Virus record (IMG/VR): IMGVR_UViG_3300032004_000003
Location: 3,965 to 67,964 of that record
DNA length: 64,000 nt
Strand: one strand, 5' to 3'
From: a virus
Taxonomy: Duplodnaviria; Caudoviricetes
The translations under genes and the position numbers were made by a program. The notes beneath the pieces were generated by a model. The model saw nothing but the letters and a program-made list of their open reading frames with translations. It was not told where the DNA came from and ran no database searches. Below, piece after piece: positions 17,143 through 36,025 of the stretch (within the stretch, counting starts at the first letter, position 1; the number at the start of each line of letters is the position of its first letter).

Positions 17143-18639
17143 TCAGGCGGCTTTGACGGCGACGGGCTTGGTGCCGGCCGGGACCGCCACCGGCGGCACC
17201 GCTGCCTGCCCCGGCCGCTGCCCAGGCACCGCCGCCGCCAGCATCGGCGGCATGGCCTTGGCGGTCTCGCTGTCGAGCTGGTCGCGCACGTCCTCGTCGC
17301 TCAGGTGGTCGGGGATCAGCTCGCCGCGCCGCAGGTTGTGCATCAGCACCTCCCACGAGAAGGCGCCGGCGTTCCAGGCGGCGACCATCTGCGCCAGATC
17401 CTGGCCGGTGAGGCCGGCATCGAAGAAGTCGGTGTTGAGCTGGACGTCGGCGTCGAGCGCGGCGGCGTCCTCGCCGGCCCCGGCCCACCACAAGGCGGTG
17501 CGCAGCGCCTTGGTCAGGGCAAAGCTGGAGGTGTTGGCGATGGCCGCCAGGATCGAGGTCTCGCCGGTCTGCCGCAGGCGCACGGTCTCGGCGGCCTCGG
17601 CATCCTTCTTCTGGCTTTCCAGGATCCTGCCGCCGGCGGCGGCCATGCGGCTTTCCAGGTGCTCGACCTGGGTCGAGAGCGAGCCGATGCCGGCGCCGCT
17701 GACCTCGAGCATCCCGGCCTTGCCCTGGCTGGTCAGCAGCCACGCCGTGCCTGAGCCGATGCGCCACTCGCGCGGCGCCGGGTCGGCGGCGCTGTGATCG
17801 TCGGCAACCCAGGGGGTTGGCAGGGCGACCATGTGCAAGGCGTGAGCCAGATCCGCCGAGCAGCGATAATGGGCGAGGTTAAGGTTGCAGACGTCGAGCA
17901 GCGGCGGCTTCTGCGGCTGCGGATCAAGGGAGAACGGGCCGCAGGTGACGAACGGGATGAAGTCGAGCGCGCGGCCGCGCCGTGCCGGCACGTAAGCGTC
18001 GACCCGGTTCCATTCGTCGCCGTCGCCTTGCTGCTTGTGGTCGCTCGGCTGCCACAGCTCGACGCCGTAGACGCCGTCCTTCAGCTGCAGGACCCGGAGC
18101 TGCCGCAGGGCGTGATCGCCGTAGCCGTCCTCTTCCGGGACGGTGACCTCGTCCTCAAGGATCAGCTGCTGCAGGAAGGGCAGGCCCGCGGCGTCGATGC
18201 CCACCGACCAGTTGCGGATGTGCTCGGCGGGGTACAAGCGAATGTACGGCCGGCCGTTCTCGCCCTGGGCCAGGTCGGTGATGATCCCGGCGCGGCCGGT
18301 GGCCAGCACCTCCTGCACCAGGTCGCGCGCCACGACATCGGCCGGGGTGCCGTCGAGGGTCAGGTTGTCGGCCCAATCCTCGTAGGCTGCAGGCAGATTG
18401 ACCGTCGGCGGCTTGCGGAAGATCAGCCCGGTCAAGCCGGCGCGGGTGCGCGCGACCGCGGCCTCGAACGGGGCGCGGGCCAAGAAGCTGCGGAAGTCGC
18501 GCCAGTCCTGGCCGCTGGGGCGGGGAAGGTAGGTCTCGCCCTTGGCCTTGATCGCCTCCTCGCCCTCAAGGGCGTCGCGGATCTTGGCCCAGACCTCGGC
18601 GCGATCCGCGTAGCAGCGATGGGTGTTGGTCACGGGCAT
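17143..18639 (-). CDS. Portal protein (DUF4055 family)
   Basis: YLPRPSG...FLARAPF...IFRKPP; KPPLLDVCNLNLAHYRCSAD...ALPTPW; LNTDFFD. Confidence 0.9.
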   Translation of the reverse strand: MPVTNTHRCYADRAEVWAKIRDALEGEEAIKAKGETYLPRPSGQDWRDFRSFLARAPFEAAVARTRAGLTGLIFRKPPTVNLPAAYEDWADNLTLDGTPADVVARDLVQEVLATGRAGIITDLAQGENGRPYIRLYPAEHIRNWSVGIDAAGLPFLQQLILEDEVTVPEEDGYGDHALRQLRVLQLKDGVYGVELWQPSDHKQQGDGDEWNRVDAYVPARRGRALDFIPFVTCGPFSLDPQPQKPPLLDVCNLNLAHYRCSADLAHALHMVALPTPWVADDHSAADPAPREWRIGSGTAWLLTSQGKAGMLEVSGAGIGSLSTQVEHLESRMAAAGGRILESQKKDAEAAETVRLRQTGETSILAAIANTSSFALTKALRTALWWAGAGEDAAALDADVQLNTDFFDAGLTGQDLAQMVAAWNAGAFSWEVLMHNLRRGELIPDHLSDEDVRDQLDSETAKAMPPMLAAAVPGQRPGQAAVPPVAVPAGTKPVAVKAA

Positions 18640-18749
18640 GGGCGCGTCCAAGGCGAAAGGATCGCACCTGGATAGAGCCGGGACGCGATTCAATCAAGCC
18701 GGGGGTCCATCCACGCCGCGTGGGGGGGCCAAGTCGAGCGCGCGGCGGC

Positions 18750-19652
18750 GCCTTGCCTTGCCTCGCCGTGCCTCGCCGGCCATGCCACGCCTCGCCCGGC
18801 CACGCCTCGCCCGGCCACGCCGCGCCAAGCCCGGCCTTACCGCGCCTCGCCGGCCGCGCCGAGCCATGCCCCGCCTTGCCGTGCCGAGCCGCGCCCAGCC
18901 TTGCCGAGCCCTGCCGGCCGCGCCCAGCCCCGACCCGCCACACCTTGCCGCACCGCGCCTTGCCATGCCGGACGCACCCTGCCTTGCCAGAACCAACCTG
19001 GCCCTGCCTTGCCACGCCGGCCACGCCCCGCCGCACCTCGCCGTGCCGTGCCTCACCGTGCCCTGCCCCGCCGCGCCGTACCCTACCGGCCGCACCCCGC
19101 CGCGCCGCGCCAGACCCCGCCATGCCTTGCCGCGCCTCGCCAGCCCGGCCCCGCCTAGCCCTGCCGGGCCCGGCCTAGCCCAGCCCCGCCGTGCCAAGCC
19201 CCGCCGGCCCTGCCATGCCGAGCCTTGCCACGCCCCGCCTTGCCGGCCGCACCCTGCCGTGCCATGCCACACCGCGCCGCGCCTCGCCACGCCGTGCCGC
19301 GCCCCGCCCTGCCGGCCACGCCAGACCGCGCCTTGCCCAACCGGATCACGCCGAGCCACGCCTCGCCGGCCGCGCCACGCCACACCGCACCTCGCCGCAA
19401 CCAGCCAGGCCATGCCGGTCCAGCCACGCCTTGCCAGGCCTCACCGCGCCATGCCGTGCCCGACCTCACCCCGCCTCGCCGGCCATGCCGTGCCGCGCCA
19501 TGCCCGACCTCGCCACGCCCTGCCAGCCACGCCGCGCCTAGCCAAGCCTGGCCAAGCCACGCCACGCCACGCCACGCCGGCCCTGCCAAACCCGACCTGG
19601 ACACGCCTTGCCGCGCCTGGCCATGCCATACCCGCGCCAGCCACACCACGCC
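18750..19652 (-). ncRNA. GGY-NN pentamer array (903 bp); predicted guide-like non-coding RNA array of 16 units
   Basis: Hand parse: 184 triplets (177 GGC/GGT) separated by 166 variable dinucleotides, one trinucleotide and 16 single-base hinges; counts sum to exactly 903 bp; starts 7 nt after the stop of 19660..20202. Confidence 0.85.
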
Positions 19653-19659
19653 TGTAGGA

Positions 19660-20202
19660 TCAGGCCTCGACCAGCTCGGGCGCCGGCTCCTCGAGCAGCG
19701 CATCGATCGCCATCATCACCTCGCCCAGGCCAACCAGCACCCGGTACCGCGCCCGGAACAGCCGCAGCTCGCGCAGCGCCTCGCGCAGCAACGCCGACTG
19801 GTGGCTCGGCTCCTGCATCGCCACCAGCGTCTCGCGGTAGCCGCGCACCTCGTCCCGCGGCTTGAAGCTGGCGTACACCGCCACCGGCTCGGAGCGCTCC
19901 TCGCGCCCGTCCTCGTGCCGGCGGATCACCACCACCCGCACCCCGCGCTGCAGGGTCTCCGCCTGCACCTCGCGCCAGCGCTCGGCCGCCACCGCGTCCT
20001 GCCAGGTGAAGGCACCATGCAGCTTGGCCTCCTCAGGCCGCGCCGCGTTCACCACCGCCCGCGGATCGAGCACCGGCGCGTTGCCCTGGATGCGCCGCAG
20101 CTCGCCCGCCACCATGGCGGCGCTCTCCTTGGTCCGCGGGAATCCTTTCTCGAGGGCGTAGGTCGAGGACCACTCGTAGCCGAGGTGGACGTCACGCGGC
20201 AT
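19660..20202 (-). CDS. Conserved phage protein (180 aa) between the RAMP-like gene and the array
   Basis: LDPRAVVNAARPEEAKLHGAFTWQDAVAAERWREVQA; start overlaps the upstream stop. Confidence 0.8.
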   Translation of the reverse strand: MPRDVHLGYEWSSTYALEKGFPRTKESAAMVAGELRRIQGNAPVLDPRAVVNAARPEEAKLHGAFTWQDAVAAERWREVQAETLQRGVRVVVIRRHEDGREERSEPVAVYASFKPRDEVRGYRETLVAMQEPSHQSALLREALRELRLFRARYRVLVGLGEVMMAIDALLEEPAPELVEA

Positions 20203-20896
20203 CCGCAAGGCGGCTCTCCTGCTCGATGTCGGCAACGATGCTCATCTCGGCCGCGGAGGCAGCGTGAAACCGGCCGTAGGTGCCATCCCGCTCAGCACGC
20301 CACTCGCCGATGCCGACCCCGAACCCGGCCGTGTTGATCAGGTTCATGATCTGCCCTTCCGACAACACGCCCTCGTTGTAGCTAACGTTGAGCCGCGCCG
20401 CCCACGGCCAGAACTGGCCCCGGTAGCGGAGATCCGCGGTGCCCATGCCGACGCGCACCATGTCCTCGCGCATCTCCGGCTCGCCGGCGATGATCCGCAC
20501 CAAATCGTAGCGCGCCTCCATGCGCCGGCCGTTGTGCTCGTAGGCGGACGGGATGCTGATCTGCTCGCCGACGATATGGAACGCCTGGCGGGCGGCGATC
20601 TTGGTCATGTCGGCCACGGACGTGCAGGCGGTCACCGCCGCCGCCTTGAACGCGACGCTGGGGAAGCCGTAGCCGCCGCCCGGCAGGCGGTAGAGGCTGT
20701 CCTGGAAATCCTGCCAGGGGTCCTTGGCCTCCTTCGCGCCCTTGGCGACCTTCATTTGCTTGCCGAGCATCTCGAGCTTGGCCTTCTGCGACCAGGCGTG
20801 AACGATCAACGGGCTGGCGCCGAGGACGGCCACCTCCATGGTTCTGATGCGCAGTTCCGGAACGACAACGGACGTGGTAGCGGCTTTGACGGCCAT
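20192..20896 (-). CDS. RAMP/Cas7-like RRM-fold protein (234 aa), putative guide-RNA-binding effector
   Basis: AGGAG RBS; N-terminal VLGASPLIVH, central YGFPSVAFKAA and C-terminal Gly-rich loop GFGVGIGEWRAERDGTYGRF match the three RAMP (Csm3/Cmr/Cas7-group) motifs in order. Confidence 0.75.
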   Translation of the reverse strand: MAVKAATTSVVVPELRIRTMEVAVLGASPLIVHAWSQKAKLEMLGKQMKVAKGAKEAKDPWQDFQDSLYRLPGGGYGFPSVAFKAAAVTACTSVADMTKIAARQAFHIVGEQISIPSAYEHNGRRMEARYDLVRIIAGEPEMREDMVRVGMGTADLRYRGQFWPWAARLNVSYNEGVLSEGQIMNLINTAGFGVGIGEWRAERDGTYGRFHAASAAEMSIVADIEQESRLADAA

Positions 20897-20970
20897 GCGG
20901 CGAGGCTCCTTCTCGCTTAGCGTGGGGGCGGCGCGTGTGGTGCCAGCACGCGCGTCGCCCATCCATGATC

Positions 20971-21026
20971 TGGTCAGATTGTGGCTGACCAAGACTATCG
21001 CTTAGCAGCCCACCGGTTGGCGTCAA
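20971..21026 (-). promoter_or_regulatory. Sigma70-like promoter and palindromic operator candidate for the RAMP cassette
   Basis: Minus strand TTGACG (21026-21021) then GCTAAG/TAAGCG -10 region about 16 nt downstream; inverted repeat TGGTCAG-N7-CTGACCA at 20971-20991. Confidence 0.55.
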
Positions 21027-21082
21027 TAGCAGATGAGGACAGGCGGGTCCGAGCCGGGATCGGGCGCGTCGTCGCTCATGAC

Positions 21083-22010
21083 GCCGCGCCGCCTGCCGGC
21101 CCTCCAGGGCCGCTCACCGCGGCGGCTCCTCTTCCAGCCGCGGGTCCCACTTCTTTTTCTCGATCGCCTCGGCCAGGACCTCGGCCGGATCCCTGCCTTT
21201 GGTGACAACCTGCCAATGCAGCGAGGACACCGCCATCCCGACCCGTTTCGCCCAGGCGTTCATGCTCATGGTCTCGCCGCGGAAGGTGATCTTCGACCGC
21301 GTCAGCTCCCGAGCAGGCTCGGTCAGCGCCCGCTCCACGGGCCAGCCCAGCTTGTCGAGCCGGTGGAGAAGCAACGGCACCGAGATGCCGATACGTTCCG
21401 CCCAGTGGGTGAGAACCAGGGTCTGGCCACGGAAGGTGAGCAGCCGGTTGTTGCGCTTGTTGGTCGCCTGCTCGTGCATCGGGATCCAGACGCAGTTGCC
21501 GGGCTCGTAGTGGCCGTTCACGTCGAGCCGCTCGATGCTGTAACGACCCTTCTTCGGCCGCTCGCCCATGTCGGCGAGGAAGTTCGCGAAGCTCTTGCGC
21601 CACCGCTCGCAGACCTCGATCCCGCGACCGCCGTAATCGGCATAGTACTTGTTGTTGGGATTGGTGCAGCGGTCGATCATGCCCCGCAAGGTGAGGTATT
21701 CTGGCGTTGTCTCTCCTCGCTTGCTGGCCCCATGCTTGGTGTTTCGGGCCATTCGTTGATCCCGGTCCAGGCAACCACAGCTTTTCGTGTGGCCCGAGCG
21801 GAGCGCGCCGGCCCAGACGATCACCTCCTCGCCGCAGTCGCACCGGCAACTCCACGTGACCTTGGTCTCGCCCCCGGTTTGCGCGGTGCCGGCACGGTTG
21901 AGCACCGTGAGCCGACCGAACCGCTGGCCGGTGAGATCGATGAATGCGGGCATGGCGGCTCCTCATCGGTCACGGCCGCGCCGCCCCCTGCCGGCCCTCC
22001 AGCGTGCTCA
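21083..22010. repeat. Imperfect direct repeats (21083-21116 and 21975-22010) flanking the HNH gene
   Basis: Exact shared blocks gccgcgccgcc and cctgccggccctccag. Confidence 0.7.
21114..21953 (-). CDS. HNH homing endonuclease-like protein
   Basis: DLTGQRFGRLTV; WSCRCDCG; LRSGHTKSCGC; YGGRGIEVCERW; SIERLDVNGHYEPGNCVW. Confidence 0.9.
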   Translation of the reverse strand: MPAFIDLTGQRFGRLTVLNRAGTAQTGGETKVTWSCRCDCGEEVIVWAGALRSGHTKSCGCLDRDQRMARNTKHGASKRGETTPEYLTLRGMIDRCTNPNNKYYADYGGRGIEVCERWRKSFANFLADMGERPKKGRYSIERLDVNGHYEPGNCVWIPMHEQATNKRNNRLLTFRGQTLVLTHWAERIGISVPLLLHRLDKLGWPVERALTEPARELTRSKITFRGETMSMNAWAKRVGMAVSSLHWQVVTKGRDPAEVLAEAIEKKKWDPRLEEEPPR

Positions 22011-22838: not shown

Positions 22839-23209
22839 GGCTCTTGCTCCCGCCGCCGCTCCATCTCGTCCAGCCGCTGCTCGACCTTGCGCAGGCGCTG
22901 CTCCAGCTCGCGCAGATGGCCGTCCAGCTGCAGCACCCGGGTGCCGCGCTCGATCTGGCCGATCTCCAGCCGCGTCAGATCGTTCTCCAGCCGGCCAAGC
23001 CGCCGCTCGATCCCGTGGAGCCGGTCCAGAAGCGGCGGGACCGTCAGCCCCGCCATCGGTCCTGCGAGCGCGGTCCCCAGCTCCGGCAGCGGCCTCTCGT
23101 TGATCGCCTGCAGCTCGGCCCGCATCTCGCGCAGCATCGCGAGGCACTCATCCTGGAGGGCATGGATCTGCGCGATCTGCTCCGCCGCCTTGTCCCAGTC
23201 CGCCGCCAT
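22835..23209 (-). CDS. Coiled-coil hypothetical protein
   Basis: Heptad Leu repeats; coupled overlap. Confidence 0.6.
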   Translation of the reverse strand: MAADWDKAAEQIAQIHALQDECLAMLREMRAELQAINERPLPELGTALAGPMAGLTVPPLLDRLHGIERRLGRLENDLTRLEIGQIERGTRVLQLDGHLRELEQRLRKVEQRLDEMERRREQEP

Positions 23210-23275
23210 GCCCTGCCCTCCCCTGGACACGGCATCGTAGCGCGGTGCGGGGGCCGGTGCGCGCAATCCGTGCGA

Positions 23276-23889
23276 GCGCGCACCATGGGGCGGCGGCGCG
23301 CCCCGCTAGCAGCTGGCGAGCAGGCAAGCGCTTCGGTAGAAATTGGCGCGCTACCTCTCACTGCGGAGATGAACATGACCGAGAAGAAATGGTCGCCCTG
23401 GCCGCTGATCAGCTTCGGGCTGCTCGCGCGGTCGCCGGTGATGTGTCGCAAGCTTCTGGCCACGGCGGCGCTCGCCTCGAGCCTGGGCGCGTGCGCCTCG
23501 GTGCCTAGCCCGCTCGCCCCGCTGGATCACGAGCTGGCCCGCATGACGCGGCAGCCCGACGATCCGGCCCGGGACACGTGGCAGACAGCGGGCCAGATGG
23601 CGTCGACCCGGGTCGGCGACTGCGAGGACTTCGCCGCCTACTCGTTCGCCTGGCTCCAGGCCCGTGGCTTCCATCCCACGCTCGCGATCGGCACCCGCAG
23701 CGGGGGTGGCCTGCACGCCTGGGTCGAGGTCGAGATCGACGGCCAGACCTGGTTCGCCGATCTCGACCGGGTGACCCAGCAGCGGCCGACATGGGACCCC
23801 TTGGGGCCGGTGGCGGTGGAGCTGGTGCGGCTGGCCAAGGGTGGCCCGGCGTGGCCGGAGGAACGCGCCGGCGCGCACCATGGGGCGGC
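23276..23889. repeat. Exact 19-bp direct repeat flanking the BTLCP gene
   Basis: GCGCGCACCATGGGGCGGC at 23276-23294 and 23871-23889. Confidence 0.8.
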
Positions 23890-23899
23890 CGGCGCCTAG
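23369..23899 (+). CDS. Transglutaminase-like cysteine peptidase (BTLCP) lipoprotein
   Basis: Lipobox SLGAC; WQTA...GDCEDFA catalytic Cys motif; HAWVEV; GGAG RBS. Confidence 0.8.
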   Translation: MNMTEKKWSPWPLISFGLLARSPVMCRKLLATAALASSLGACASVPSPLAPLDHELARMTRQPDDPARDTWQTAGQMASTRVGDCEDFAAYSFAWLQARGFHPTLAIGTRSGGGLHAWVEVEIDGQTWFADLDRVTQQRPTWDPLGPVAVELVRLAKGGPAWPEERAGAHHGAAGA

Positions 23900-24369
23900 C
23901 GCGGCCCAGGCGCGCCGACCCGGGCGCTGGTGCGGTCACCCGCACCTTGGTCACCCCCGACCCGCACCATCCCGTGCGGCAGCGCGACCCCCTGCTCGCC
24001 GTCGGCCAGCCGGCGCGCGGCGTGCAAGGCCAGGATGATGTCCTCCGGGTCGTAGGGCTTGGCCATGGCCAGGCCCGGCGCGGCGCTCGGGTCGTGGAGC
24101 ACGGTCGAGACCCACGCCGTGCAATAGACCACGGCGCAGTCCTGGGCGCCTAGCGCGCGCGCGACCACGCGGCCGTCGCCTGGCGCCAGCTTGACATCCA
24201 CCAGCGCGTGGGTCGGATGGGTGAGCGCGGCCAGGACCAAAGCGCCGTGCTCGCTGCCGGCGACGCCGACCACCTCCAGCCCGGCCTCCTCAAGAACCTG
24301 CTGCGCCAAGATCGCGATCACCACCTCGTCCTCGACCACGAGAACCCGAGCCGCCCTGGGGGCGGTCAC
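23896..24369 (-). CDS. Single-domain response regulator (CheY-like receiver)
   Basis: VLVVEDEVVIA; ALVDVKL (phospho-acceptor Asp); VVYCTA; AKPY. Confidence 0.85.
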   Translation of the reverse strand: MTAPRAARVLVVEDEVVIAILAQQVLEEAGLEVVGVAGSEHGALVLAALTHPTHALVDVKLAPGDGRVVARALGAQDCAVVYCTAWVSTVLHDPSAAPGLAMAKPYDPEDIILALHAARRLADGEQGVALPHGMVRVGGDQGAGDRTSARVGAPGPR

Positions 24370-32805: not shown

Positions 32806-33543
32806 TCAAGCGGCTCTCGGGGCGGTGCCGACGATCGCGGCGCCGATCTCGGCCAGGAAGGCGGCACGCTCGTCCTCGGTCGCGGCGTGCCAGTCCCGGC
32901 GCATCCGCTCGACGCGGGTCGGCGTCTTGCGCCAGCCCTTGGCGACGGCGGCGGCGTTGGCGGTCAGCTCGCCGCGTTCCACCTGGGTGGCGAGGTCGGG
33001 GTCGTCACGGCGCAGGCGGGCGAGGGTACGGTCTTTGGTCTCACTCCTCGATAATGCGCGTAATCCCGCGCATTCCTCACCCTTCTTCGGCCTGCCCGCC
33101 TTGGCGCGGAGCTGGATCTCCTCCGCGCCCTGCTCCTGGGTGACCTCGCCCTTCTTGAACCGGGCGTAGGTCTTCTGCAGCTCGGCCCAGGACCCGAGCC
33201 ACGGCTCGACCAGCTCGGCGTACACGGCCTCGAAGCTGCCGAAGGTGCGGACGGTGAGGCCTCTGGCGTCACCGTCGGGCGGCACCACGACCATCGGCCG
33301 CGACCAATCCCGCCGTTGCGCGTCCTCCAGCAGGCGCACGATCTCCGGCCACATCCAGTTTTGAGCGGCGCTGATCCCGACCAGCTGGGCAAGCAGGAAC
33401 TCCTCCTGCTCGGGACGGACGCCCCGGATCGCACCCTTGCCGCGGATGGCGTCGCGCGACCGAGTCGAACGCAAGCTGATCTGTCGTTCCGCCTGCAGCA
33501 GGTCGGATTGGCCTTCGAGGCCGATCTCGTCCTTACGCGACAT
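32806..33543 (-). CDS. Hypothetical phage protein with C-terminal helical DNA-binding-like motif
   Basis: AGRPKK; RTLARLRRDDPDLATQVERGELTANAAAVAKGW. Confidence 0.65.
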   Translation of the reverse strand: MSRKDEIGLEGQSDLLQAERQISLRSTRSRDAIRGKGAIRGVRPEQEEFLLAQLVGISAAQNWMWPEIVRLLEDAQRRDWSRPMVVVPPDGDARGLTVRTFGSFEAVYAELVEPWLGSWAELQKTYARFKKGEVTQEQGAEEIQLRAKAGRPKKGEECAGLRALSRSETKDRTLARLRRDDPDLATQVERGELTANAAAVAKGWRKTPTRVERMRRDWHAATEDERAAFLAEIGAAIVGTAPRAA

Positions 33544-36025
33544 CGGCCCGGCTCCCGAAGTAGACGGCGCCGGCATGGGGAATGACGCCGCTGCGGATCA
33601 GCAGTCGAGCCGCCAGCTCCTTGATCTGCCCCTGCACCCGGGGCCGGGTCAGCTCATGGTGATAGCTGGGCTGGTCGAGAGGGCCGTCGTTGCTGGTGTC
33701 AGGGCAGCCGAACACCATGCCCACCGCCACGCTGACGGCCTTGAACACCTCCTTCCCTGCGCTCGACGGCAGCTGCAGGCGATGATCGAGATCCTTGTGC
33801 AGCACGTCGCCGATGCCGGTGACGATGCCGCGATCGCCTTTGCAGGTGTGCAGCCGGAACAGACGGATCGGCTGGCGGTAGTAGCGCATCTCTTCATCGT
33901 GCATGACTTGGCTGATGAGGCGCAGCGTTACCGGATGGCCTTCGGTGAGAGCCGCCAGGATCGAGGCCTCGCCGTACTTGCGCGAGCCGGTGGCGAACCG
34001 GATCAGCTCCTCCTGCGTGTGCTCGCCCGGCTTCTTCGGCTCCTCACGGCTGATCGGGCAGATGACCGCCGGAGGCGTTTCGGAGATCAGCTCGCCACGG
34101 TACCTCGAGTCGTGCAGCACGCGCTCGATGTGCTCCTCGGCGCGTTCCCGCCGCCCTTCCGTCAGCACCGGCGGCAGCCGGGACAGGATGCCCTCGATCA
34201 CCTCGGAATCGATTTTTTCGATCGGCGTGCCGCTCTCGATCACCCGGCCCAGCTCGGCATCGACCTGCACCCGGTCGCCGAGGGTGAACGGCTGCTCGGT
34301 AGCCTGTGGCAAGTGCCAGAGCGCCGTGTCCTCGCCGTCGAGAATGTCGGCCCAGCCGATCAGGCCGGCGCTCTCGAAGCGCGCGTCCATGTCGAGCACG
34401 AAGTCGAACGCCTGCTGCATGGCGCCGGGCGAGCCGCCGTGATCCGGGTAGAAGTACCGGATCGCCACGAACTCCCTCAGCTTCTTGTCGCGCGCCGCGT
34501 CCTGCAGCCAGAACGGCAGCCGCATCGGCCGCCCGAGGATCTGCACCTGCACGTTGACGCTGTTGCCGCGGGCGATGTCGACCACGATCAGGGTCGGCCA
34601 GTTGTTGAGCCCGCGCAGACCCATGTCGACGCAGAACAGAATGCGTGACGAGCGCCGATCGCAACGACCGCGGTGATCCTTGGCGCGCAGGAACGGATGC
34701 ACCACGCCCTTCTGGTCGTGGAACAGCCGCGACTCCTCGGCCGGCACGCCGCGCATGCCCTGATGGATGATCGTGGTGCGCCAGCCCTCGCCGACCGTGT
34801 CGAACATCCCGGCTTCGAGGTCGCGGTCGACCTGAGCTTTGAGATGCTTGGCCTCGGCCTTGCTGTCGCAGCGGATCAGGATATGCGGCGAATACCAGTG
34901 CTCCGGCATCGCCTTGCGCATCTCGCGCTCGATCTCCGACGCCTGGACGATCGCGTGCCGGATGGCGGCGAGCCCACCCGGCAGGGAGGACTTGACGCCG
35001 TGCTGGCCCTCCCGATGGACCTCGATGCCGGCGTCAAGCGTGCAATAGGCCGAGTGCGGCACGGCCATGACCCAGCCGTGATCGCGCGCTTCCTGCCAGT
35101 CGACGAGCAGGGATAGGCAACGGTCGTGGTCGAAGACGGCCCGGTAGCTCGCCTTGCCGGCGAGCGCGAAATGGCGCAGGAACTCGCCGCTGCCGTCGAT
35201 CGGGGTGGCGGTGAGCCCGAACTTGAGCGCGTGCGGCGCCAGCCGGGCAAGGCGGCCGATCTGGTCGGCGGCGAAATCGCACTCGTCCCAGACGATGACG
35301 TCCCACTTGGACAGCGTCTCGGCGATCTCGGCGTCGCTGCGCTTCTGGTCCTTGCGCTCCCAGAGCGCGTGCGGGCAGGAGATGGTGAAGTCGTGGTGCA
35401 TCGGCCCACGCTCGAGGTCGCCGGTCTCGTTGCAGATCTGCACCGACGGCGGCGAGGCGTGGATCCCGAGATCCACGATCTCCTTGAGCAGCTCGCGCTT
35501 GAGCTGGTCGCCCAAGGCCCGTTCCTGCACGAACCAGAGCACCTTGCGCACGCGGGGCGCGTGCTCGATCTGCCGATTGACCTCCTCGTTGATCGCGAGC
35601 AGCAGCGCCACCATCGTCAGGGTCTTGCCGGCGCCGGTGACCATCGCCAGCAGCGAGACGTAGCGCAGCAGCTCGCGGCGCTTGGTCGTGAACAGCTCGG
35701 CGCAATTCAAGACCGCGTCGGGACCGCAAGCCATCTGCATGCGGCGCAGGTTCTCGAAGTTAGGCCGCTCGTCGAACCACGTCGGCCGCCGCCATTTCGG
35801 GTCGGGCTGCATGCCACGCTCGCGGTTGAAGCGCGCGCACACCAGCCGGCAGTTGGCCAAGCTGGTCTCGCCACCCAGCGCCTGGGCGTGCAGGTGGTCG
35901 ACCTCCAGCCGCCGGTCGCACGGCTGGTCGCATTTGATCTCGCAGGCGTTCTGCGCGCGTCGCAGCAGCGCCGTCCAGATCTCGAGCGGCATGTCGTCAG
36001 GCTTGTGAGGAATCTCGAACAACAT
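33533..36025 (-). CDS. HNH endonuclease - SF2 (DExD) helicase fusion, restriction Res-subunit-like (830 aa)
   Basis: CEIKC...LEVDHLHAQALGGETSLANCRLVCARFN; MVTGAGKT; VWDECD; FGLTATP; CVDMGLRGLN; VQILGRPMR. Confidence 0.8.
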   Translation of the reverse strand: MLFEIPHKPDDMPLEIWTALLRRAQNACEIKCDQPCDRRLEVDHLHAQALGGETSLANCRLVCARFNRERGMQPDPKWRRPTWFDERPNFENLRRMQMACGPDAVLNCAELFTTKRRELLRYVSLLAMVTGAGKTLTMVALLLAINEEVNRQIEHAPRVRKVLWFVQERALGDQLKRELLKEIVDLGIHASPPSVQICNETGDLERGPMHHDFTISCPHALWERKDQKRSDAEIAETLSKWDVIVWDECDFAADQIGRLARLAPHALKFGLTATPIDGSGEFLRHFALAGKASYRAVFDHDRCLSLLVDWQEARDHGWVMAVPHSAYCTLDAGIEVHREGQHGVKSSLPGGLAAIRHAIVQASEIEREMRKAMPEHWYSPHILIRCDSKAEAKHLKAQVDRDLEAGMFDTVGEGWRTTIIHQGMRGVPAEESRLFHDQKGVVHPFLRAKDHRGRCDRRSSRILFCVDMGLRGLNNWPTLIVVDIARGNSVNVQVQILGRPMRLPFWLQDAARDKKLREFVAIRYFYPDHGGSPGAMQQAFDFVLDMDARFESAGLIGWADILDGEDTALWHLPQATEQPFTLGDRVQVDAELGRVIESGTPIEKIDSEVIEGILSRLPPVLTEGRRERAEEHIERVLHDSRYRGELISETPPAVICPISREEPKKPGEHTQEELIRFATGSRKYGEASILAALTEGHPVTLRLISQVMHDEEMRYYRQPIRLFRLHTCKGDRGIVTGIGDVLHKDLDHRLQLPSSAGKEVFKAVSVAVGMVFGCPDTSNDGPLDQPSYHHELTRPRVQGQIKELAARLLIRSGVIPHAGAVYFGSRADVA

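What the first reader, a model, noticed from the sequence alone, without database searches (positions are those of the whole stretch)
18750..21026. Phage-encoded RAMP/Cas7-like protein + accessory gene + GGY-NN array: candidate RNA-guided system with a gapped guide code
Seen in sequence: a compact minus-strand cassette sits between the terminase/accessory region and the portal gene. It contains a sigma70-like promoter (about 21000-21026), a 234-aa gene (20192-20896), an overlapping 180-aa gene (19660-20202), and then, 7 nt after that stop, a 903-bp array of fixed GGY triplets alternating with variable dinucleotides. Established knowledge: the 234-aa protein has the three RAMP motifs in order (N-terminal xPLxV strand, 'FPSVAFKAA' equivalent to 'iPgSslKGa', and a C-terminal Gly-rich loop ending GxYGRF). 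RAMP/Cas7 proteins polymerise along guide RNAs with a fixed periodicity. No cas1, cas2, cas6 or nuclease gene and no CRISPR repeat-spacer array is nearby. Inference: each protomer grips a GGY and presents the NN for pairing, so a unit's dinucleotides together specify a non-contiguous target, possibly used to repress or interfere with competing phages or host genes without cutting. This matches my unverified recollection of recently described VIPR-type (Vipr protein plus GGY/NN RNA) systems. If it is not already catalogued, it is a new member or subtype that includes an accessory gene.
Basis: partly seen in the sequence, partly recalled or inferred. Interest (0 to 1): 0.97.

Follow-up and report, generated by a model that had tools for sequence, protein, structure and literature searches.

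The report
Phage VIPR locus, 16-guide array
This is a genuine member of the recently described phage VIPR family: a Cas7-like protein, a partner gene and an unusually long array of 16 GGY-NN guide RNAs, so it is a fine specimen of a known kind of system, not a new kind.

Summary
On the minus strand lie a 234-aa gene (20896-20192), an overlapping 180-aa gene (20202-19660) and, 7 nt later, a 905-nt array of GGY-NN pentamers (19652-18748). The array has 154 five-nt steps against about 10 in shuffles.

In 123 of 160 related loci a same-strand array adjoins the gene, against 1 on the opposite strand. In 118 of 160 the accessory gene is adjacent.

The array splits into 16 guides of 6-15 units, joined by 4-nt GGCY hinges. 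This is the "staggered array" already described for VIPR (bioRxiv 10.64898/2026.04.26.720920).

So this is a new member of a known kind. Its distinctive features:
- the largest array seen here (relatives: median 30 GGY units);
- GGCC/GGCT hinges where relatives use GGCA;
- no structured leader and no terminator;
- a sister contig with identical Vipr but 22 guides, differing by whole guides.

No credible natural target was found, and the host is unknown.

Other first-reader notes on this same stretch exist in the scan.

The parts
20897..21113 (-). Intergenic leader upstream of vipr. It holds a TTGACG hexamer (21026-21021), an inverted repeat TGGTCAG-N7-CTGACCA (20991-20971), a GC hairpin GCGCGTG-N9-CACGCGC, and the Shine-Dalgarno GAAGGAG (20912-20906).
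   Evidence: Read directly. The consensus scan finds no E. coli-type sigma-70 promoter. The covariance model of the structured leader found in relatives does not match here.
20192..20896 (-). vipr: a 234-aa RAMP/Cas7-like protein, the RNA-binding filament subunit.
19660..20202 (-). vap: a 180-aa (or 182-aa) VIPR accessory protein with no assigned fold. Its start overlaps the vipr stop by 11 nt.
   Evidence: It matches phrog_15946. A homologue at 23-40% identity lies next to vipr in 118 of 160 related loci. The AF2 model has pLDDT 89. It has no Pfam, NCBIfam or PADLOC match and no solved-fold match beyond a generic helical hairpin.
18748..19652 (-). Staggered vrRNA array of 16 guides of 6-15 GGY-NN units, joined by 4-nt hinges (GGCC 11 times, GGCT 4 times). 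Guide boundaries: 19652-19578, 19578-19524, 19524-19480, 19480-19416, 19416-19367, 19367-19313, 19313-19244, 19244-19205, 19205-19141, 19141-19087, 19087-19018, 19018-18969, 18969-18915, 18915-18851, 18851-18777, 18777-18748.
   Evidence: Parsing, statistics, TRF periods of 5 and 5n-1, hinge counts. Whole-guide differences from the sister contig L161 fall at exactly these boundaries.
18641..18747 (-). Post-array spacer with stable hairpins but no T-tract terminator. It runs into the portal start codon (ATG at 18640).
   Evidence: Sequence, fold, no terminator. The portal is called as 498 aa from this ATG in other contigs.

Best explanation
This is a VIPR (Viral Interference Programmable Repeat) locus carried by an uncultured 68-kb, 71% GC tailed phage. 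It sits as a mobile cassette between an HNH-like gene and the portal gene.

Shown here, by sequence, fold and comparative genomics:
- The 234-aa protein is a Vipr-family RAMP.
- Its partner is a conserved Vap.
- The downstream GGY-NN array is a family-wide companion on the same strand.
- The array is built of 16 modules, each 5n-1 nt long, separated by GGCY hinges.

Inferred from published work on SUSP1 VIPR:
- The array is transcribed with vipr and vap and gives rise to about 16 vrRNAs of roughly 30-75 nt.
- Vipr protomers polymerise one per pentamer. Each grips the GGY (H33, R159, E198, W199 and R200 are the equivalents of the SUSP1 contact residues) and presents the NN.
- The filament binds double-stranded DNA whose sequence matches the NN pairs with one skipped base between them (xNN).
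- This blocks transcription of genes of competing phages, prophages or satellites. Vap enhances the effect.

My own inference, untested: the 4-nt hinge breaks the 5-nt register of the filament and so sets the boundary of each vrRNA without a ribozyme or 3' tail. The conserved hinges also serve as recombination points at which whole guides are gained or lost.
For: Protein membership:
- phmmer and profile searches of the PDB find only SUSP1 Vipr.
- The residues that paper 10.64898/2026.04.26.720927 shows to hold G1, G2, Y3 and the skipped base map as follows: H17 to H33, K33 to K49, R138 to R159, D177 to E198, W178 to W199, R179 to R200. All are invariant in 30 homologues.

Array:
- 154 five-nt steps against 10 expected.
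- Guide lengths of 6-15 units agree with the published 9-16, apart from the short last block.
- The 1-nt overlap equals the published staggered architecture.

Association:
- 123 of 160 related loci have a same-strand array beside vipr, against 1 on the opposite strand.
- vap is adjacent in 118 of 160.
- The flanking HNH, portal and terminase genes are not conserved neighbours, so the cassette is the unit.

Modularity: contig L161 encodes the identical Vipr but has 22 guides. It shares guides 1-7, 10-13 and 13-16, with the differences at hinge boundaries.

No self-targets on the phage's own contig, as published for other VIPRs.

NN composition fits sense codon positions 1-2 better than any other phase, by 0.5-0.8 bits per slot.

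Viral context: terminase, portal, MuF, scaffold and major head genes surround the cassette.
Against: - No natural target was found. Exact xNN scans of viral contigs for 7 guides and of metagenome contigs for 2 guides gave nothing, or only hits consistent with chance.
- Transcription, processing and protein binding are untested.
- No canonical promoter or terminator is detectable.
- The N-terminal part of the alignment to SUSP1 Vipr is weak (domain scores -1.8 and 1.8 bits), so the H33 and K49 equivalences are tentative.
- D177 is E here.
- The NN composition test barely beats a uniform model (0.06 bits per slot).
- The last block has only 6 units and no hinge, and guide 15 contains internal repeats, so some guides may be degenerate.
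- According to the paper's text, staggered arrays have not themselves been confirmed by small-RNA sequencing.
Confidence: 0.88

Rival explanations
1. A nuclease-armed VIPR. The HNH-like gene immediately upstream (21953-21114, same strand) acts as a second accessory, so targets are cut and not merely silenced, as proposed for VIPR types III-V.
For: The gene is adjacent and on the same strand. It matches phrog_374 and phrog_3377 'HNH endonuclease' (E 1e-70). The paper notes HNH-containing Vaps in some types.
Against: An HNH homologue occurs in only 4 of 160 related loci, and there it lies about 6 kb away. A 217-nt gap separates it from vipr. HNH genes beside terminase and portal genes are a common packaging feature of phages (established knowledge). 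Pfam's HNH model does not match it.
Confidence: 0.06
2. The guides are aimed at the bacterial host, not at rival mobile elements. The phage would then reprogramme host transcription, for example of surface-polysaccharide genes, during infection or lysogeny.
For: A 10-unit seed of guide 14 matches a conserved phosphoglucomutase-like gene in two metagenome contigs. No phage target was found.
Against: About one chance seed hit was expected. The flanking guide units match at chance level. The skipped base falls on codon position 1, not the wobble position. The contigs have 57-58% GC against 71% for the phage. Published natural targets are overwhelmingly satellites and prophages.
Confidence: 0.1
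3. The array is mainly a decoy or sponge. Many of its units do not guide this phage's own Vipr but titrate or redirect the VIPR machinery of competitors, as described for satellite-encoded solo vrRNAs.
For: The third preprint shows stand-alone vrRNAs that redirect a rival's VIPR. This array is far larger than in relatives: 180 units against a median of 30. It uses a different hinge, GGCC/GGCT against GGCA. Some guides look internally repetitive.
Against: The array sits in the canonical position after its own vipr and vap, on the same strand, like 123 relatives. The GGY motifs are intact. Nothing here tests cross-reactivity with other Viprs.
Confidence: 0.05
4. A pentanucleotide microsatellite or spurious coding region without RNA-guide function, lying next to a RAMP-like gene by coincidence.
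For: Gene callers place ORFs over the array, for example a 396-aa ORF in L161. High-GC DNA has long open frames.
Against: GGY is fixed while NN varies across 16 dinucleotide types. The array co-occurs with vipr across phyla, on the same strand in 123 loci against 1. A period of 5 with regular -1 shifts cannot keep a reading frame. No ORF over the array passes the codon-composition filter that picks every real gene around it.
Confidence: 0.02

Closest known systems
VIPR systems with staggered vrRNA arrays (bioRxiv 10.64898/2026.04.26.720920, fig. S18)
   Same: A Vipr RAMP, an adjacent vap, a same-strand GGY/NN pentamer array, consecutive vrRNAs overlapping by one nucleotide, no 3' tails or ribozymes between guides, and a phage host.
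   Different: The array is much longer: 16 guides here and 22 in the sister contig, against a median of about 30 GGY units in 123 relatives. The hinge is GGCC/GGCT where relatives mostly use GGCA. The structured leader and the intrinsic terminator that frame the cassette in many relatives are missing. The cassette is inserted directly upstream of the portal gene.
SUSP1 / Pseudomonas fulva type II VIPR (the experimentally characterised systems; PDB 36pp)
   Same: The protein family and the GGY-contact residues, the GGY/NN code, guide lengths of about 9-16 units, the presence of a vap, and no self-targeting.
   Different: The sequence relationship is very distant: only the G-loop and thumb region aligns significantly, and tblastn does not find SUSP1. 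SUSP1 has 4 separate vrRNAs of about 100 nt, each with a pseudoknotted 3' tail, and one lies upstream of vipr. Here there are 16 tail-less guides in one continuous array. This Vap shows no detectable similarity to anything in SUSP1 at tblastn E up to 1.
Class 1 CRISPR-Cas backbone subunits (Cas7/Csm3/Cmr4)
   Different: There are no CRISPR repeats or spacers, none of the neighbouring genes scanned is a cas gene, and there is no large or small subunit. The period is 5 nt with three bases sequestered, against 6 nt with one flipped base. The system is phage-borne. It is not a CRISPR-Cas system.
Gordonia phage Ecliptus genes 19-20 (OP820472) and Mycobacterium phages Saal, Donkeykong and others
   Same: A Vipr homologue (about 39% identity), a staggered GGY-NN array with 4-nt hinges, and a Vap homologue, all inserted inside a structural gene module. 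Ecliptus was checked directly.
   Different: The gene order in Ecliptus is vipr-array-vap, the array is only about 230 nt, the hinge is GGCA, and the hosts are actinobacteria. All these genes are annotated 'hypothetical protein'.

Membership tests
VIPR | Sequence homology to an experimentally characterised Vipr. | tested here: met
   The only PDB hit is 36pp 'SUSP1 Vipr protein', at E 0.0056 with a single sequence and 2.4e-6 with a 30-sequence profile. The match covers the thumb and G-loop.
VIPR | Conservation of the residues that read GGY and hold the skipped base (SUSP1 H17, K33, R138, D177, W178, R179). | tested here: met
   They map to H33, K49, R159, E198, W199 and R200, all invariant in alignment A1. 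D is replaced conservatively by E. The H33 and K49 equivalences rest on a low-scoring N-terminal alignment.
VIPR | An adjacent same-strand RNA locus of alternating GGY/NN pentamers (at least 4 YNNGG repeats), with 9-16 repeats per vrRNA. | tested here: met
   180 GGY units fall into 16 blocks of 6-15 units. The same association holds in 123 of 160 relatives.
VIPR | A minimal locus: vipr plus one vap, with no CRISPR array and no cas1, cas2 or cas6. | tested here: met
   vap is conserved in 118 of 160 loci. The neighbours scanned are phage packaging and head genes. No repeat-spacer array lies within about 10 kb. The whole window was not scanned for cas genes.
VIPR | A viral or proviral genome context. 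| tested here: met
   The assembly is a single 67,964-bp virus record. Terminase, portal, MuF, scaffold and major head genes flank the cassette.
VIPR | No self-targeting by the locus's own guides (no site with at least 80% NN match on the source contig). | tested here: met
   For guides 1-15 the best match on the phage's own contig is 61-79% of NN positions. The 6-unit guide 16 reaches 11 of 12. No guide beats its shuffled versions.
VIPR | Natural targets in competing mobile elements under the 1-nt skip rule. | tested here: inconclusive
   Exact scans for 9 guides or seeds gave either no hits or hits consistent with chance. A mismatch-tolerant search of large collections was not possible with these tools, and the host is unknown.
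VIPR | vrRNAs are expressed, co-purify with Vipr, and direct programmable DNA binding and silencing. | not testable with these tools
   This needs small-RNA sequencing, pull-down and reporter assays.
VIPR | Assignment to one of types I-VII, by Vipr phylogeny, vap class and array architecture. | not testable with these tools
   The type-defining trees, figures and data files are not held. The locus is not close to type II SUSP1. Its vap is not recognisably enzymatic, which the text associates with types II, VI and VII.
CRISPR-Cas (class 1) | A CRISPR repeat-spacer array and cas adaptation or processing genes alongside the Cas7-like subunit. | tested here: not met
   There are no direct repeats of CRISPR type. 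None of the neighbouring genes scanned is a cas gene. The only repeat is the period-5 array.

The most novel reading that the evidence does not exclude
The 4-nt GGCY hinge may be a programmed break in the register of the Vipr filament. It would define vrRNA ends with no ribozyme, tail or dedicated nuclease, and would also serve as a recombination joint. Staggered arrays would then behave as modular guide libraries that gain and lose whole guides between otherwise identical phages (16 against 22 guides here). That would be a Cas1/Cas2-free analogue of spacer turnover. The held text of the VIPR papers neither confirms experimentally how staggered arrays are processed nor describes guide-level turnover.
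Probability: 0.35. Interest if true: 0.6.

Novelty: new member of a known kind. Interest (0 to 1): 0.36.

Why it matters
VIPR is a new class of RNA-guided DNA recognition, first posted in 2026, and only type II systems from enterobacterial and Pseudomonas phages have been dissected.

This locus is a clean natural example of the tail-less "staggered" architecture, from a high-GC environmental phage. It has the longest array among more than 160 loci examined here, and a sister genome differs from it by whole guides. That makes it a good substrate for three questions:
- how staggered arrays are cut into guides;
- how guide repertoires change over time;
- what a phage does with 16-22 guides at once.

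It does not change the picture of what VIPR is. It also shows that gene callers mis-annotate such arrays as ORFs, and that cultured Gordonia and Mycobacterium phages carry unannotated relatives that could be tested directly.

Tried and rejected
Annotation searches that found nothing:
- Pfam, NCBIfam and PADLOC give no match for either protein.
- Rfam finds no family in 18400-21300, so there are no hammerhead ribozymes between guides.
- The E. coli-type promoter and terminator scan finds none.
- Megablast of 18 kb against 50,697 phage records gives no match.

Vap fold:
- Foldseek against the PDB finds nothing at E up to 0.001.
- BFVD and the ESM Atlas return only uncharacterised viral proteins.
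- The profile search of the PDB gives only a marginal ssDNA-binding protein hit (E 0.61), which I rejected.

Targets:
- The phage's own contig and the 160 related loci score no better than shuffled guides.
- Viral-contig scans for guides 7, 15, 11, 4, 6 and 9 gave 0 hits. Guide 12 gave 2 hits on contigs of 37-44% GC, rejected as chance.
- Metagenome scans: guide 1 gave 0 hits. The guide 14 seed gave 2 hits in one conserved phosphoglucomutase-like gene, rejected as chance.

Host inference: the record is a virus, so no 'relatives' search is possible, and the portal has no named relative above 52% identity.

HNH-like neighbour as part of the system: rejected because it is not conserved with vipr.

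Leader of the relatives: sought in the window with a covariance model and not present.

Tool issues:
I reran it reading the files instead.
- The paper's supplements are not held, so no type could be assigned.
Full report
**What is there**

The minus strand of 18748-21113 holds four elements in order:
- a 217-nt intergenic leader;
- a 234-aa ORF (20896-20192) with a good Shine-Dalgarno;
- a 180-aa ORF (20202-19660) whose start overlaps the first ORF's stop;
- after 7 nt, a 905-nt tract in which GGY recurs every 5 nt.

Of 181 successive GGY-to-GGY steps, 154 are exactly 5 nt and 17 are 4 nt. Shuffles of the same bases give a mean of 10 and a maximum of 19 five-nt steps, and nothing else on the 68-kb contig resembles the tract. 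Tandem Repeats Finder independently reports periods 5, 15, 20 and 25, and also 44, 59, 64 and 69, which are all 5n-1.

Parsing shows why. The tract consists of 16 blocks of 6-15 pentamers. Nearly every block ends in GGCCG or GGCTG, and that last G is also the first G of the next block. Put another way, blocks are joined by a 4-nt GGCY hinge (GGCC 11 times, GGCT 4 times). Only the "sigma-70-like promoter" is unsupported: a TTGACG hexamer is present, but no consensus promoter or terminator is found.

**What it is**

A literature search found that VIPR systems are already described in three 2026 preprints.
- The discovery paper defines them as a Vipr RAMP protein, usually one accessory gene (vap), and vrRNAs of 9-16 YNNGG repeats. 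They lie mostly in phages and prophages and fall into seven types with several array architectures. One architecture is the "staggered array" whose vrRNAs overlap by 1 nt.
- The structural paper shows that one protomer binds per repeat. H17, R138, D177, W178 and R179 hold the GGY, K33 holds the backbone next to the skipped base, and the NN pairs with DNA while every third target base is skipped.

I tested membership directly.
- By sequence, the 234-aa protein hits only one thing in the PDB: 36pp, "SUSP1 Vipr protein". E is 0.0056 with the single sequence and 2.4e-6 with a 30-member profile.
- In those alignments the six functional residues fall on H33, K49, R159, E198, W199 and R200. All are invariant in the family alignment. 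The N-terminal part of the alignment is weak, so H33 and K49 are tentative.

Comparative genomics agrees. Among 160 related loci from viral contigs and from bacterial genomes of many phyla:
- 123 have a same-strand GGY period-5 array beside the gene, against 1 on the opposite strand;
- 118 have a homologue of the 180-aa protein adjacent, in the order vipr-vap-array or vipr-array-vap.

The HNH-like, portal and terminase neighbours of the window are not conserved with the cassette. The cassette is therefore a mobile module, and the HNH-like gene is not part of it.

In the window the module sits inside the packaging and head gene block: terminase 26077-24749, portal 18693-17143, then MuF, scaffold and major head genes. 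The assembly is a single virus record of 67,964 bp at 71% GC.

The scan found no CRISPR-type repeats nearby, and none of the neighbouring genes scanned is a cas gene. It also found no ribozyme or other Rfam family in the cassette.

**The accessory protein**

Vap folds confidently (pLDDT 89). It has no Pfam, NCBIfam or PADLOC match, and no solved-fold match beyond a generic helical hairpin. Its only look-alikes are uncharacterised phage proteins. It shows no nuclease or helicase signature. I can say only that it is a conserved partner. The paper reports that SUSP1 vap1 enhances protection.

**How it most likely works**

By homology with SUSP1, the array is transcribed with vipr and vap. Vipr then coats each guide, and the filament silences DNA that matches the NN pairs under the 1-nt skip rule.

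Three observations fit this model but do not prove it:
- Guides 1-15 match the phage's own contig at only 61-79% of NN positions, and none of the 16 guides matches better than its shuffled versions. The paper likewise found no self-targeting.
- Among codon phases, the NN composition fits sense positions 1-2 best, by 0.5-0.8 bits per slot. It is barely better than a uniform model.
- Contig L161 encodes the identical Vipr but carries 22 guides. It shares guides 1-7, 10-13 and 13-16 with the window and differs by whole guides at hinge boundaries. This supports the blocks being real functional modules.

I infer, without a test, that the 4-nt hinge breaks the filament register and so sets guide boundaries. 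According to the paper's text, ribozyme arrays and single-guide systems were confirmed by small-RNA sequencing, but staggered arrays were not.

**Targets**

I could not identify a natural target. Exact xNN scans were run in the viral collection for guides 7, 15, 11, 4, 6, 9 and 12, and in the metagenome collection for guide 1 and a 10-unit seed of guide 14. They gave either nothing or hits consistent with chance. The chance hits had the wrong GC content, flanking units that did not match, and the skipped base off the wobble position.

The host is unknown, because the portal has no named relative above 52% identity.

**How this locus differs from its relatives**

- Size: 180 GGY units, against a median of 30 and a maximum of 129 in the 123 array-bearing loci.
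- Hinge: GGCC/GGCT, where relatives mostly use GGCA (447 of about 640 hinges). The cultured Gordonia phage Ecliptus also uses GGCA.
- Framing: many relatives carry a structured leader of about 140 nt before vipr and an intrinsic terminator after the array. The window has neither, and its array runs to within 108 nt of the portal start codon.

**Verdict**

This is a bona fide VIPR locus with a staggered array. It is a new member of a known kind, not a new system. The accessory gene and the hinge grammar are already part of the published description. Interest is moderate, as a specimen for studying how staggered arrays are processed and how guide repertoires turn over.

Noticed in passing
Related loci, for example L013:5865-6003, L081:5867-6003, L041:5839-5979 (not in the window): A structured RNA leader of about 140 nt ends exactly at the vipr start codon in 50 of the first 100 related loci (covariance model R1, E 1e-13 to 1e-38). 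98% of cells are paired, 16 of 27 pairs show compensatory changes, 0 of 500 shuffles reach the observed score, and slid-partner controls fall to 34-53% paired; the alignment is model-fitted, which leans towards the structure. The outer helix pairs CUUC with the Shine-Dalgarno GGAG. By eye, the loop of hairpin 1 covaries with a downstream segment, which suggests a pseudoknot. It has no Rfam family and is not mentioned in the held text of the VIPR papers. It may be a translational control element for vipr. It is absent from the window.
   Followed up: partly
L161:7245-8473 compared with window 19652-18748: A 68,206-bp metagenome contig (ENA ERZ27248596) encodes the identical Vipr but has 22 guides against 16. 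Whole guides are inserted, replaced or duplicated at hinge boundaries, and one guide is chimeric: a new 5' unit joined to the last 8 units of window guide 9. Several shorter contigs end inside the array, so assemblies break there. The gene caller placed a spurious 396-aa ORF over the array.
   Followed up: partly
L175 (Gordonia phage Ecliptus OP820472, genes 19-20); also Mycobacterium phages Saal, Donkeykong, Mattes and others: Cultured actinobacteriophages carry Vipr homologues at about 39% identity, annotated 'hypothetical protein'. In Ecliptus a staggered GGY-NN array of about 230 nt with GGCA hinges lies between the vipr and vap homologues, inserted between the tail chaperone and tape measure genes.
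   Followed up: partly
Related loci, for example L010, L038, L044, L046, L050, L081, L103, L106, L114 (just after their arrays): Arrays in many relatives are followed directly by a GC-rich hairpin plus T-tract, typical of an intrinsic terminator. The cassette there is therefore a self-contained transcription unit. The window lacks this.
   Followed up: no
window 21114-21953 (-): A 279-aa protein matches PHROG 'HNH endonuclease' families (E 1e-70) but not Pfam's HNH model. It lies between an Uma2-like/orf99 region and the VIPR cassette. It is not conserved with vipr elsewhere and is probably packaging-associated.
   Followed up: partly
window 22844-24369: Between the terminase and the VIPR cassette lie a plus-strand gene with a transglutaminase-like core domain (22844-23899) and a small response-regulator receiver-domain gene (23896-24369, minus strand). 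These are unusual cargo for a packaging module.
   Followed up: no
window 33533-36025 (-): An 830-aa protein combines an N-terminal HNH domain with a ResIII/DEAD helicase core.
   Followed up: no
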